Below, piece after piece: positions 3,001 to 6,000 of a stretch of 64,000 nucleotides of DNA (the first letter of the stretch is position 1; each line of letters begins with the position of its first letter). A program made the position numbers. The DNA comes from Escherichia coli. GTDB taxonomy: Bacteria > Pseudomonadota > Gammaproteobacteria > Enterobacterales > Enterobacteriaceae. The stretch lies in NCBI RefSeq assembly GCF_030384885.1, contig NZ_CP128613.1; one strand, written 5' to 3'.

Positions 3001-6000
3001 CCAGCAGGCTTTCCACTTCCAGATGCCACATAGGGTAGAACAGTGTTGCCGCACCGCCGCGCACACCGCCCTGAGAGCAGGATTTCACTGCCGTCTGGAA
3101 ATGTTTGTAGAACGGAATACAACCGGTGTGGAATGCTTCGCCACCGCGAATCGGGCTACCCAGCGCACGAATACGCCCGGCGTTAATGCCGATCCCGGCA
3201 CGCTGGGAAACGTATTTAACAATCGCGCTGGAGGTGGCGTTGATGGAATCCAGGCTGTCGCCGCACTCAATCAGCACGCAGGAGCTGAACTGACGAGTAG
3301 GGGTACGCACGCCGGACATGATTGGCGTCGGCAGCGAAATTTTAAATGTGGAAACCGCGTCGTAAAAACGCTTCACGTATTGCAGGCGCGTTTCACGCGG
3401 GTAGTTCGAGAACAGGCACGCAGCAACCAGAATATAGAGGAACTGGGCGCTCTCATAGATTTCGCCGGTCACGCGGTTCTGTACCAGATATTTGCCTTCC
3501 AGCTGCTTAACGGCAGCATAAGAGAAGGTCATATCACGGTCGTGATCGATAAACGTGTCCATCTGCTTGAACTCTTCTTCCGTGTAGTCTTCCAGCAGAT
3601 GATTATCGTATTTGCCCATCTCGACCATTTTCACCACGTGGTCGTACAGCGCAGGCGGCTCAAACTGGCCATAGGCTTTTTTACGCAGGTGGAAAATTGC
3701 CAGGCGCGCGGCGAGATACTGATAATCCGGCGCATCACGGGAGATCAGGTCTGCGGCAGCCTTGATAATGGTTTCGTGGATGTCAGAGGTCTTGATACCG
3801 TCATAAAACTGAATGTGGGAGCGCAGCTCGACCTGGGAAATCGAAACGTTATGCAGTCCTTCTGCCGCCCAATCCAGAACGCGATGGATTTTGTCGAGAT
3901 TGATGCGCTCTGTGCTACCGTCGCGCTTTGTCACCAGCAGATTCTGATTCATGTATGTCGTACCTGTTTTTGGAATTCTTTCCGCAATAGCTTCATGCAG
4001 ACTACCTGTAGTGAGGGAAGCTGCTTAGAACACTATATATAGGGGGTATGTTTGGGATTCACTGCAAGATAGTGTGAAAATGGCCCTCTTGCAAGTGCAT
4101 AACTTTGTGGATAACTCAGGAAGGAAAAAGTGGCTTCCGCGCACCTTAGGTCAGACAAGGTATCCGGGAAAGTCAATGGGAAGAGAAAAATTTGTTAAAA
4201 ATAACTGTTCGGCGATTTCTTGAACGGCAGAATAGTATGGGTAAATTGATATAGATGGTTTATTAATCTTGTTGCTAATGATTGCCAAAATTGATCTAAG
4301 CACGAGTCATCACATAATCTGATGTATCAGTTGTGGTCAATATATAAGCGAATGTAAGCGATTGTTGAGTCGAAATGGTTGTTTTATATTCGTTTGTTGT
4401 TAAATACCAAGCCAATTTGTTACTTTTGCATATATTATAAGAATATTATTTATTACTTTAATTCAGTTTAAATATAACCGATTTACCTTAAGGTTATTAA
4501 TTTGAATTATGATACACTGATATTATTCATCAAGTAATAACAAAATAGTCATTGCACCGAGTTATACAATTTACAAAAGAAAGATACCCCATATCACATA
4601 ATGCGATTAAATACGCCTTCTCATAGAAAAGGATGGTTAGGGTAATATGCGGATTATTTTTCTACGTAAGGAATATTTATCTTTACTCCCGTCAATGATT
4701 GCGTCTCTCTTCTCCACTAATGGTATCGCAGCGGTTATTGATTCATGCCAGGGATATGATATCAAAGCGAGCTGTCAGGCCAGCAGGCAAAGCCTTTCAG
4801 GCATTACGCAGGACTGGAGCATCGCCGATGGGCAATGGGTGATTTTTTCGGGTATGGCCAATAATGCCAGCGGTGGCGCCGTATTTTTGCAACAAGGAGC
4901 GGAGTTTTCTCTATCGCCAGAAAATGAAACTGGAATGACTTTGTTTGCCAATAATACTGTCTCAGGAGAATATAATAATGGCGGGGCAATATTTGCTAAA
5001 GAAAACTCAACGATAAATATTGAGAATGTTATTTTCGACAGTAATGTTGCTGGGGGCTATGGCGGAGCAATCTATTCTGCCGGTACCAACGATACTGGTG
5101 CCGCCGATTTACGTATCACTAACGCCGTATTTCTCAATAACATCGCTAATGACGGCAAAGGCGGTGCACTTTATAACATCAATAATGATGTCTATTTAAG
5201 TGATGATGTTTTTAATAATAACCAGGCATATACATCAACAAGTTACAGTGATGGCGTCCGATATCACTGATAATAATAGCGACAGCAAGCATCCATCAGG
5301 TTATACGATAATAAATAACACCGCCTTTACAAATAACACTGCCGAAGGTTATTGCGGGGCAATTTATACCAATAGCGCGACGGCTTCCTATCTTATTGAT
5401 ATTTCAGTTGATGACAGCGACAGCCAGAACAACGGTGTTTTAGTGGATCAGAACAACAGCGCAGCAGGCTATGGCGATGCATCATCGGCGGTGGCGGGAG
5501 GCTTCATGTTCATTGATTCAAGTCAGGTCAGATTTGACATCGCGGCCAATAAAACTCTGGTCATCGGCAACATGAGTAACGATGGTGAGATCGATTCCAT
5601 TGCCGGAAACAGTAGCTAAGTGTTGCTGTTCATAGCACGCCAGCATTAGATCTGAATTATTATCACGAGCCCCATTCGGTGGAAATTGAAGACGGTGGCA
5701 GCAATATCAGCGACGATGCGGCTAAGCAGCGTGGCGTGGCAGAAAGGGAGTAATGATTTTGCCCAGACGGCAGGGTTTTTATCGATGACGATAAAATGGT
5801 AATTGCTGTCCGCCTGGTATTGTTACCGGATGCAGTGCGAGCACTTTATCCGGCCAACAACCTCACTTATTCTGCGTGTGCAGCATATAGTTCACATCGA
5901 CGCCGGGGCCGAGCTTAAAAGTATTAGTGATCGGGTTGTAATGCAGTCCGATCATATGCCGTTCTTTTAGACTGGTCTGATCCACCCAGCCCAGCAATTC

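What the first reader, a model, noticed from the sequence alone, without database searches (positions are those of the whole stretch)
4029..4114. nrdAB regulatory region: consensus DnaA box plus two NrdR-box-like palindromes
A perfect TTATCCACA DnaA box sits about 155 bp upstream of the nrdA ATG, followed towards the gene by two imperfect palindromes spaced about three helical turns apart that resemble NrdR boxes. This matches the known coupling of nrdAB expression to replication initiation and nucleotide pools.
Basis: partly seen in the sequence, partly recalled or inferred. Interest (0 to 1): 0.3.

Follow-up and report, generated by a model that had tools for sequence, protein, structure and literature searches.

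The report
E. coli nrdAB promoter: DnaA, NrdR sites

Summary
The window is the E. coli chromosome (100% match to strain 2013C-4282), and nrdA-nrdB-yfaE lie on the minus strand. TTATCCACA sits at 4114->4106, which is 162 to 154 bp upstream of the nrdA ATG at 3952. Two NrdR-like 16-mers sit at 4077->4062 and 4045->4030, with centres 32 bp apart.

The promoter core matches K-12 except for one base, so published K-12 data apply. The perfect box is the first half of a double DnaA box, gTTATCCACAaagTTATGCACTt, which binds DnaA in vivo by ChIP-seq. The second half abuts the -35.

Work from 2025-26 shows that NrdR hardly binds that pair (KD above 6000 nM). It binds box 1 plus a downstream box 2 (KD about 100 nM). 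Box 2 lies at 4014->3999, outside the reported interval. Box 0 is the -10 and transcription-start region.

A weight matrix trained only on other E. coli nrd operators ranks box 1 first, box 2 third and box 0 eighteenth in the window.

Side result: in 70 of 73 other enterobacterial species the DnaA boxes lie in the leader, touching box 1, and box 1 pairs with the upstream box. The Escherichia layout therefore looks like a lineage-specific rewiring.

The parts
4106..4114 (-). DnaA box 1, a perfect consensus TTATCCACA, 162 to 154 bp upstream of the nrdA ATG. It is the upstream half of the double DnaA box.
   Evidence: Exact match. Identical to the K-12 site gTTATCCACAaagTTATGCACTt listed as DnaA-bound by ChIP-seq (PMC11317965). 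Identical to K-12 in the alignment.
4094..4102 (-). DnaA box 2, TTATGCACT, with one mismatch to TTATNCACA. It lies 3 bp after box 1 in direct orientation, and its last T is the first base of the -35.
   Evidence: Sequence. Double-box format with 2-3 bp spacing, and both halves required for binding, per PMC11317965.
4089..4094 (-). Inferred sigma-70 -35 hexamer, TTGCAA.
   Evidence: Read from the sequence: a 17-nt spacer to TATCTT. With 4 of 6 matches in each hexamer it falls below the 9-of-12 threshold of the consensus scan, so the scan did not list it. It fits the published statement that box 0 covers the -10 and the transcription start.
4066..4071 (-). Inferred -10 hexamer, TATCTT, lying inside NrdR box 0. 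The transcription start is expected at about 4062-4058.
   Evidence: Sequence. Literature statements that box 0 lies in the -10 region and covers the transcription start. The exact start was not verified here.
4062..4077 (-). NrdR "box 0", TCACACTATCTTGCAG. It now appears to be a decayed operator that serves as the -10 and start region.
   Evidence: Weight-matrix score 7.7 bits, rank 18 in the window. C at conserved position 6. The box 0 + 1 oligonucleotide gives KD above 6000 nM, and a C6A change raises affinity 10-fold. It is orthologous to a better upstream box (11.4 bits) in other genera.
4030..4045 (-). NrdR box 1, CCCCTATATATAGTGT.
   Evidence: Best NrdR weight-matrix score in the whole window, 17.0 bits, above all 100 random maxima. 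All six conserved positions are present (C4, A6, A8, T9, T11, G13). Conserved in 76 species loci. Published mutation abolishes NrdR binding.
3999..4014 (-). K-12 has GTACTACAGGTAGTCT, so this strain carries a minority allele at box positions 1-2.
   Evidence: Weight-matrix score 11.3 bits, rank 3 in the window. The box 1 + box 2 pair scores 28.3 bits and is the best pair in the window. The K-12 box 1 + 2 oligonucleotide binds NrdR at 96-113 nM. Allele counts: the window 57-mer is exact in 502 of 5,426 genomes and the K-12 57-mer in 3,370.
3953..4062 (-). nrdA 5' leader of about 107-110 nt, containing NrdR boxes 1 and 2.
   Evidence: No Rfam family. No fold beyond shuffled controls, z = +0.38. 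The conserved leader elements therefore act as DNA operators, not RNA structure.
136..3952 (-). The regulated operon: nrdA (1667-3952), nrdB (390-1520) and yfaE (136-390).
   Evidence: RefSeq annotation of the identical record NZ_CP027579.1. ORFs listed.
4080..4223 (+). ypaB small ORF of 47 aa on the opposite strand, overlapping the -35 and both DnaA boxes.
   Evidence: Intact on translation. Annotated as ypaB in K-12 and many other genomes but not in this strain's record. The ORF is not conserved outside Escherichia-type loci.
4224..4646 (.). AT-rich distal upstream region, falling to 20% G+C, between the nrdA promoter and the divergent yfaL pseudogene. The literature places Fis, IciA and H-NS inputs and a cell-cycle element upstream of the DnaA boxes.
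   Evidence: Composition profile. Literature statements only. The individual sites were not located here.

Best explanation
[quoted passage not shown] It works as follows.

1. Promoter. It is a weak sigma-70 promoter: -35 TTGCAA at 4094->4089, a 17-nt spacer, and -10 TATCTT at 4071->4066. Transcription starts near 4060 and gives a leader of about 110 nt.

2. DnaA. Directly upstream, and touching the -35, is a double DnaA box, TTATCCACA-aag-TTATGCACT. A DnaA dimer binds it cooperatively. According to the literature, DnaA at these high-affinity boxes helps RNA polymerase when DnaA-ATP is low or DnaA is ADP-bound. High DnaA-ATP extends occupancy to an ATP-specific site and blocks the promoter. 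This ties dNTP synthesis to the initiation cycle.

3. NrdR. In the transcribed leader, NrdR binds box 1 (4045->4030) and box 2 (4014->3999). NrdR is a repressor with a Zn-ribbon and an ATP-cone. [quoted passage not shown] The two boxes are separated by 15 bp, so they lie on one face of the helix. NrdR bends the DNA and represses transcription. With ATP alone NrdR forms filaments that cannot bind DNA, and the operon is derepressed.

4. Box 0. It now supplies the -10 and start region and contributes little or nothing to NrdR binding.

Shown here: the identity, positions, spacing, statistical strength and conservation of every element. Taken from the literature: the binding and regulatory effects. 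Inferred: the exact -35, -10 and transcription start.
For: - Source and annotation: the window matches E. coli 2013C-4282 at 100% and carries the nrdA, nrdB and yfaE annotation.
- Identity to K-12: the promoter core matches K-12 except for one spacer base and two bases at positions 1-2 of box 2.
- DnaA: the 23-mer gTTATCCACAaagTTATGCACTt is listed as the DnaA-bound double box at nrdA, with 14-fold ChIP enrichment, and earlier mutational work required both halves (PMC11317965). The activation and repression model for DnaA-ATP versus DnaA-ADP is summarised in PMC8203912 and PMC11853086.
- NrdR binding: KD is 113 nM (ATP-dATP) or 96 nM (ADP-dATP) for box 1 + 2, and above 6000 nM for box 0 + 1. 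A box 1 mutation abolishes binding in a gel shift and a box 0 mutation does not (PMC12176259). Box 0 has C6, and C6A raises affinity 10-fold.
- Independent weight matrix: scores are 17.0, 11.3 and 7.7 bits for box 1, box 2 and box 0 (ranks 1, 3 and 18). Pair scores are 28.3 and 24.7 bits, against a random maximum of 18.7.
- Conservation: box 1 is conserved across 76 species, and the module is present in 5,425 of 5,426 E. coli genomes.
- The leader RNA is unstructured and matches no Rfam family.
Against: - All binding and regulatory data come from K-12 papers.
- The -35, -10 and transcription start are inferred. The consensus scan did not call this promoter, and I could not open the primary mapping papers.
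- The published ChIP-seq peak centre (2344805) lies about 90 bp nearer the gene than the double box (2344703-2344723).
- The data excluding box 0 are in vitro, on 57-58-bp oligonucleotides. In Salmonella, mutating the orthologous upstream box did derepress nrdAB partly. Some in vivo contribution from box 0 cannot be excluded.
Confidence: 0.9

Rival explanations
1. One reading: NrdR represses by binding the two palindromes inside the interval, box 0 (4062-4077) and box 1 (4030-4045). These have a 16-bp linker and NrdR would directly block the -10 and the start site.
For: - The pair scores 24.7 bits, well above any random pair.
- The 16-bp linker is a canonical spacing.
- The pair is orthologous to the one conserved in 71 of 73 other species.
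- It was the published annotation from 2005-2007.
- In Salmonella, mutating the upstream box partly derepresses nrdAB.
Against: - The E. coli box 0 + 1 oligonucleotide has KD above 6000 nM, against about 100 nM for box 1 + 2.
- A box 0 mutation has no effect on the gel shift of a 185-bp fragment.
- Box 0 carries C at conserved position 6.
- Most of the pair score comes from box 1 alone. Box 0 ranks only 18th in the window.
Confidence: 0.08
2. The motifs are chance matches with no regulatory role.
For: A single TTATCCACA is not rare. The window has 2 copies against 0.34 expected, and 8 of 100 shuffles reach 2. Only 13 of the 32 perfect boxes in the E. coli genome bind DnaA in vivo.
Against: - The box has the double-box architecture and matches a ChIP-bound site exactly.
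- The NrdR pair scores exceed all 100 random windows.
- Box 1 is nearly invariant across Enterobacterales.
- The module is conserved in 5,425 of 5,426 E. coli genomes.
Confidence: 0.01
3. The sequence around the DnaA boxes is conserved because it encodes the small protein YpaB on the opposite strand (4080-4223), not because DnaA binds it.
For: The 47-aa ORF is intact and is annotated as ypaB in K-12 and many other genomes.
Against: - The ORF does not cover the NrdR boxes.
- In E. albertii (L004) no equivalent ORF was found.
- In the phage P1-type copy of this DNA the reading frame stops after 25 codons, yet the double DnaA box and -35 are kept almost intact.
- DnaA binding at this sequence is shown experimentally.
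Confidence: 0.01

Closest known systems
E. coli K-12 nrdAB promoter (nrdAp) with its DnaA double box and NrdR operator
   Same: The sequence matches from the DnaA boxes to the ATG except for three bases. The gene order is the same: yfaL, nrdA, nrdB, yfaE. The double DnaA box is the same 23-mer. NrdR box 0 and box 1 are identical.
   Different: Box 2 begins TC instead of GT. This is a minority allele, exact in 502 of 5,426 genomes against 3,370 for the K-12 form. There is one C/T change in the -35/-10 spacer. The divergent neighbour yfaL is a truncated pseudogene in this strain.
E. coli nrdHIEF and nrdDG NrdR operators
   Same: Each has two 16-bp partly palindromic boxes separated by 15 bp. E. 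coli NrdR loaded with ATP plus dATP binds them with similar affinity, 138 and 160 nM against 113 nM for nrdAB.
   Different: In nrdAB the operator lies wholly downstream of the transcription start. [quoted passage not shown] A third, decayed box (box 0) sits on the -10.
nrdAB regulatory region of other Enterobacteriaceae and Erwiniaceae (Salmonella, Citrobacter, Klebsiella, Enterobacter, Pantoea, Erwinia)
   Same: NrdR box 1 is nearly identical. An orthologous upstream box keeps the same 16-bp linker. There are perfect TTATCCACA DnaA boxes, with a second weaker box 3 bp further on.
   Different: In those genera the DnaA boxes lie in the leader. One touches the 3' end of box 1 (70 of 73 species) and an inverted partner lies 29-31 bp further on in most. 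No downstream NrdR box 2 is present (mean score -3.9 bits). The -10 (TAGAAT) lies just before the upstream box rather than inside it. ubiG, not yfaL, is the upstream neighbour.
Double DnaA boxes at other DnaA-regulated promoters (dnaA, polA, purH, nrdD, mioC, rpoH)
   Same: Two 9-mers in direct orientation, 2-3 bp apart, one of them at or near the consensus.
   Different: At nrdA the consensus box is the upstream half and the pair abuts the -35. The literature reports both activation and repression at this promoter.

Membership tests
DnaA double box (DnaA-regulated promoter) | A 9-mer matching TTATNCACA | tested here: met
   TTATCCACA at 4114->4106 is an exact match.
DnaA double box (DnaA-regulated promoter) | A second DnaA box in direct orientation, 2-3 bp away | tested here: met
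   TTATGCACT at 4102->4094, after a 3-bp spacer (aag), with one mismatch to TTATNCACA. The format is as defined in PMC11317965.
DnaA double box (DnaA-regulated promoter) | DnaA occupancy in vivo or in vitro | not testable with these tools
   Literature only. The identical 23-mer in K-12 lies in a DnaA ChIP-seq region with 14-fold enrichment, and mutating either half abolishes binding.
NrdR operator, box 1 + box 2 (3999-4045) | Two 16-bp boxes carrying the conserved positions C4, A6, A8, T9, T11 and G13 | tested here: met
   Box 1 has 6 of 6. Box 2 has 5 of 6, with G9 giving the known non-canonical central AG. Weight-matrix scores are 17.0 and 11.3 bits, ranks 1 and 3 in the window.
NrdR operator, box 1 + box 2 (3999-4045) | A linker of 15-16 bp between the boxes | tested here: met
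   The linker is 15 bp (4029->4015). The centres are 31 bp apart.
NrdR operator, box 1 + box 2 (3999-4045) | Location in the promoter or leader of a ribonucleotide reductase operon | tested here: met
   The boxes lie 93 to 47 bp upstream of the nrdA ATG.
NrdR operator, box 1 + box 2 (3999-4045) | Nucleotide-dependent binding by NrdR | not testable with these tools
   [quoted passage not shown] This strain's box 2 allele has not been tested.
   Box 0 has 5 of 6 conserved positions but C at position 6. It scores 7.7 bits and ranks only 18th in the window.
   The linker is 16 bp (4061->4046).
   The literature indicates the feature is not met. KD is above 6000 nM, and a box 0 mutation has no effect on the gel shift. 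The box 0 and box 1 sequences here are identical to those tested.
Sigma-70 promoter | -35 and -10 hexamers with a 16-18-nt spacer and a mapped transcription start | tested here: inconclusive
   TTGCAA, 17 nt, TATCTT gives 8 of 12 matches, below the scan threshold of 9. Published statements place the -10 and the start in box 0.

The most novel reading that the evidence does not exclude
The Escherichia layout of nrdAB control may be a lineage-specific rewiring of an older enterobacterial design.

In 70 of 73 other species:
- the perfect DnaA box touches the 3' end of NrdR box 1 in the leader;
- a weaker box follows 3 bp later, and in most species an inverted partner lies 29-31 bp further on;
- box 1 pairs with the upstream NrdR box.

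In Escherichia:
- the leader DnaA boxes are gone;
- a double DnaA box sits against the -35;
- the promoter lies about one helical turn closer, so that the old upstream NrdR box became the -10;
- a new NrdR box 2 arose where the leader DnaA boxes used to be.

This would change DnaA from a presumed downstream repressor, possibly competing or cooperating with NrdR, into a dual activator and repressor.

The Escherichia-type region also seems to move between genomes. It occurs, together with yfaL, in one Pseudocitrobacter genome assembled from a metagenome. Its upstream half has been captured by phages P1 and P7, in front of their hot gene, which encodes a homologue of the theta subunit of DNA polymerase III.
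Probability: 0.5. Interest if true: 0.4.

Novelty: already known. Interest (0 to 1): 0.12.

Why it matters
nrdAB supplies the dNTPs for replication, and its promoter is a textbook link between replication initiation (DnaA) and nucleotide pools (NrdR). Nothing in the reported interval is new for that biology.

The practical value of this check is a correction for annotators. The widely copied "two NrdR boxes over the -10" annotation for E. coli nrdAB is out of date. The functional operator is box 1 plus a leader box that lies outside the flagged interval.

The comparative result matters for people who use E. coli as the model for enterobacteria. The positions of the DnaA and NrdR sites at nrdAB, and therefore probably the logic of DnaA control, differ between Escherichia and nearly all its relatives.

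Tried and rejected
- Consensus promoter scan of 3900-4700. It listed only AT-rich chance sites further upstream and missed the accepted nrdA promoter (8 of 12 matches), so it could not be used to place the promoter.
- Primary papers. Torrents 2007, Augustin 1994, Gon 2006, Babu 2017 and Olliver 2010 are not held. The mapped transcription start, the DnaA and Fis footprints and the third, ATP-DnaA-specific box could therefore not be checked against coordinates. I relied on reviews and recent open papers.
- Published 45-bp inverted repeat upstream of the DnaA boxes (mentioned). The inverted-repeat scan found only short AT-rich pairs further upstream, so I could not locate it.
- RNA explanations for leader conservation were rejected. 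There is no Rfam hit and no fold beyond shuffled controls.
- Coding constraint from ypaB was considered and rejected.
- An abnormally divergent nrdA in this strain was considered. It is 97.6% identical to K-12 in nucleotides with two amino-acid changes, which is ordinary.
- The second perfect TTATCCACA at 14785-14793 has no partner box and lies antisense inside a coding gene. I judged it a lone, probably unbound box.
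Full report
**Where the window comes from and how it is oriented.** The 801 bases around the finding match the chromosome of E. coli strain 2013C-4282 at 100% and occur in 5,425 of 5,426 complete E. coli genomes. The RefSeq annotation places yfaE (136-390), nrdB (390-1520) and nrdA (1667-3952) on the minus strand. The intergenic region is 3953-4646. Beyond it come a truncated, frameshifted yfaL pseudogene (4647-5607, plus strand), ubiG and gyrA. This is the K-12 nrdAB locus read in reverse.

**Checking the observation.** On the nrdA strand the sequence reads...cctgagTTATCCACAaagTTATGCACTTGCAAgagggccattTTCACACTATCTTGCAGtgaatcccaaacataCCCCCTATATATAGTGTtctaagcagcttcccTCACTACAGGTAGTCTgcatg...ATG.

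- The perfect DnaA box is at 4114->4106, 162 to 154 bp from the ATG.
Their centres are 32 bp apart.

The description and coordinates are therefore correct.

A lone TTATCCACA is not significant by count. The window has two copies against 0.34 expected, and 8 of 100 shuffles reach two. The NrdR-like boxes are significant. I built a weight matrix only from the E. coli nrdHIEF and nrdDG boxes, so it does not depend on nrdAB. With it, the 4030-4045 box scores 17.0 bits. That is the best score in the whole window and is above the maximum of 100 random 64-kb sequences. The 4062-4077 box scores 7.7 bits and ranks 18th. The pair scores 24.7 bits against a random best of 12.3 +/- 2.1 (maximum 18.7).

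**What it is.** The alignment with K-12 MG1655 shows the whole core, from the DnaA box to the ATG, is identical apart from three bases. One is a C/T change in the -35/-10 spacer. The other two form a dinucleotide further downstream. Published K-12 work therefore applies directly.

*DnaA.* A ChIP-seq map of DnaA lists nrdA among 16 bound regions, with 14-fold enrichment. It gives the site as the double box gTTATCCACAaagTTATGCACTt, which is exactly the window sequence 4115->4093. The same paper shows that DnaA generally needs two boxes 2-3 bp apart, and recalls that mutating either nrdA box abolishes binding (PMC11317965). The second half (4102->4094) ends on the first T of the likely -35, TTGCAA (4094->4089). 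That hexamer is followed by a 17-nt spacer and TATCTT (4071->4066).

Reviews summarise the regulatory logic. DnaA-ADP, or low DnaA-ATP, at the high-affinity boxes stabilises RNA polymerase. High DnaA-ATP also fills an ATP-specific site and represses (PMC8203912; PMC11853086; PMC2500167).

Rozman Grinberg et al. (FEBS J 2025, PMC12176259) renamed the upstream box "box 0" and measured binding of NrdR loaded with ATP-dATP or ADP-dATP. A box 0 + box 1 oligonucleotide gave KD above 6000 nM. Box 1 plus a newly recognised downstream box 2 gave 113 and 96 nM, comparable to nrdHIEF and nrdDG. Earlier gel shifts agree, since mutating box 0 had no effect and mutating box 1 abolished binding.

A 2026 preprint adds three points (10.64898/2026.05.11.724285). 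Box 0 covers the -10 region and the transcription start. It carries C at the conserved position 6. A C6A change raises affinity ten-fold.

In the window, box 2 is TCACTACAGGTAGTCT at 4014->3999, 15 bp after box 1. It lies outside the reported interval of 4029-4114. My independent weight matrix agrees with the revision. Box 2 scores 11.3 bits (rank 3 in the window), and box 1 + box 2 is the top-scoring pair at 28.3 bits.

Mechanistically, NrdR is a repressor with a Zn-ribbon and an ATP-cone. [quoted passage not shown] With ATP alone it forms filaments that bury the DNA-binding surface.

The leader itself shows no RNA family and no fold beyond shuffled controls (z = +0.38). The conserved elements in it therefore act at the DNA level.

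**Verdict on the interpretation.** It is partly supported. The locus, the DnaA target, the key NrdR box and the physiological coupling are right and are textbook knowledge. The second NrdR box is mis-assigned by the current evidence, the true partner lies outside the interval, and the DnaA site is a double box.

**Strain-specific detail.** K-12 box 2 begins GT, while this strain has TC. Among 5,426 complete genomes, the K-12 57-mer (box 1, linker, box 2) is exact in 3,370 and the window's version in 502. E. albertii also has TCAC, so the window allele is probably the older form.

**Comparative analysis (beyond the finding).** I fetched nrdA loci from 80 species representatives and aligned 278 bp upstream of the ATG for the 76 with enough flank. 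Box 1 is almost invariant.

- *Upstream DnaA box.* The box at about -160 occurs only in E. coli, E. albertii and one metagenome-assembled genome (L014).
- *Leader DnaA boxes.* In 70 of 73 other species a perfect TTATCCACA lies directly against the 3' end of box 1, at about -80. A weaker box (one or two mismatches in 61 of 70) follows after 3 bp. An inverted box with at most one mismatch lies 29-31 bp further on in most species (64 of 70 have such a partner).
- *NrdR partner of box 1.* In those species the partner is the upstream box, ACTCACCATATAGCGT, at 11.4 bits with a 16-bp linker. The downstream position scores a mean of -3.9 bits. The upstream box beats the downstream one in 71 of 73 species.
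- *Promoter position.* Their likely -10, TAGAAT, sits immediately before the upstream box. In Escherichia the distance from the -35 to that box is about 11 bp shorter, so the core of the box (TATCTT) serves as the -10.
- *Neighbouring gene.* In almost all the others the upstream neighbour is ubiG. Escherichia and L014 have the divergent autotransporter gene yfaL inserted there.

The Escherichia architecture therefore looks derived. It lost the leader DnaA boxes and gained a double box at the -35. The upstream NrdR box decayed into a -10, and a new box 2 arose. This also gives an evolutionary reason why box 0 looks like an NrdR box but is not bound.

The Salmonella study by Panosa et al. (PMC2892513) marks DnaA boxes in its nrdAB figure and found that both of its NrdR boxes matter in vivo. 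That fits the ancestral layout. I found no paper in the searchable library that describes the turnover, but the library is incomplete.

**Two further side observations.**

- *L014.* Its nrdA coding sequence is 94.7% identical to Pseudocitrobacter vendiensis and 87.4% to E. coli. Even so, it has the Escherichia-type regulatory region (82.8% over 285 bp) and an Escherichia-type yfaL. This suggests horizontal movement of that block or a chimeric contig.
- *Phages P1 and P7.* The upstream half of the nrdA control region, including the double DnaA box, the -35 and part of the spacer, is present in phages P1 and P7 and in P1-like plasmids, upstream of hot, the homologue of the polymerase III theta subunit. 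Identity is 93.8% in P7 and 82.6% in P1. It accounts for the 217-235 plasmid hits in E. coli assemblies. The P1 GenBank record already notes the similarity to an E. coli region with two predicted DnaA boxes.

**Caveats.**

- The -35, -10 and transcription start are inferred from the sequence and from secondary statements. The simple promoter scan did not call this weak promoter.
- The published ChIP peak centre is about 90 bp nearer the gene than the double box.
- The evidence against box 0 is in vitro.

**Conclusion.** The finding is a correct recognition of a known regulatory region, with one outdated assignment. Novelty: already known. Interest: low. The comparative rewiring is the only part that might merit follow-up.

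Noticed in passing
Loci L003-L082, 278 bp upstream of nrdA; window 3999-4114: DnaA and NrdR site positions differ between Escherichia and its relatives. In 70 of 73 non-Escherichia Enterobacterales a perfect TTATCCACA touches the 3' end of NrdR box 1 in the leader, mostly with an inverted partner 29-31 bp further on. Box 1 pairs with an upstream NrdR box there. Only Escherichia-type loci have the DnaA double box at the -35 and a downstream box 2.
   Followed up: partly
L014 (CAJYVI010000014.1, metagenome-assembled genome labelled Pseudocitrobacter), locus 1-1200: Its nrdA coding sequence is Pseudocitrobacter-like: 94.7% identical to L015 and 87.4% to E. coli. Its nrdA regulatory region and the upstream yfaL are Escherichia-type, unlike its congener L015. 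This points to horizontal transfer of the yfaL plus promoter block, or to a chimeric contig.
   Followed up: partly
Window 4076-4205; L085 (phage P1 NC_005856.1, 86399-86513); L084 (P1-like plasmid): Phages P1 and P7 and P1-like plasmids carry 115-130 bp homologous to the nrdA upstream region. The copy includes the double DnaA box, the -35 and part of the spacer, and lies upstream of hot, the homologue of the polymerase III theta subunit. Identity is 93.8% in P7 and 82.6% in P1. It explains the 217-235 plasmid hits. The P1 GenBank annotation already notes the similarity.
   Followed up: yes
Window 3999-4014: NrdR box 2 is polymorphic at positions 1-2 in E. coli. K-12 has GT (57-mer exact in 3,370 of 5,426 genomes), this strain has TC (502 of 5,426), and the GTDB representative L003 has GC. 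E. albertii has TC, so TC is probably ancestral. The predicted effect is negligible.
   Followed up: yes
Window 4647-5607: The divergent neighbour yfaL, an AIDA-I type autotransporter of 1,250 aa in K-12, is reduced to a frameshifted fragment lacking its C-terminus in this strain. Roughly 2.8 kb is missing before ubiG.
   Followed up: no
Window 4080-4223 (+): The 47-aa ypaB ORF overlaps the nrdA -35 and both DnaA boxes on the opposite strand. It is intact here, with one amino-acid difference from K-12 (Thr2Ala), but is not annotated in this strain's RefSeq record.
   Followed up: partly
Window 14785-14793 (-): A second perfect TTATCCACA lies antisense inside the alpha-2-macroglobulin family gene (11840-16354). 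No partner box lies 2-3 bp away. The locus is not among the published DnaA ChIP-seq regions.
   Followed up: partly
Window 6638-6646 (-): TTATTCACA, which fits TTATNCACA, lies in the short ubiG-gyrA intergenic region (6586-6731).
   Followed up: no
K-12 coordinate 2344805, equivalent to about window 4012: The published DnaA ChIP-seq peak centre for nrdA lies about 90 bp nearer the gene than the double DnaA box, over NrdR box 2. This may reflect peak resolution or additional contacts (coordinates).
   Followed up: no
Window 32975-33068 (-), 29238-29314, 41081-41163, 58102-58175 (-), 61893-61918 (-): Routine Rfam hits elsewhere in the window: MicF sRNA upstream of ompC, naRNA4 repeat elements, one tRNA, and the L25 ribosomal-protein leader.
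   Followed up: no
Window 47938-48560 (+): ccmA, the cytochrome c maturation ATPase gene, is annotated as a frameshifted pseudogene in this strain.
   Followed up: no
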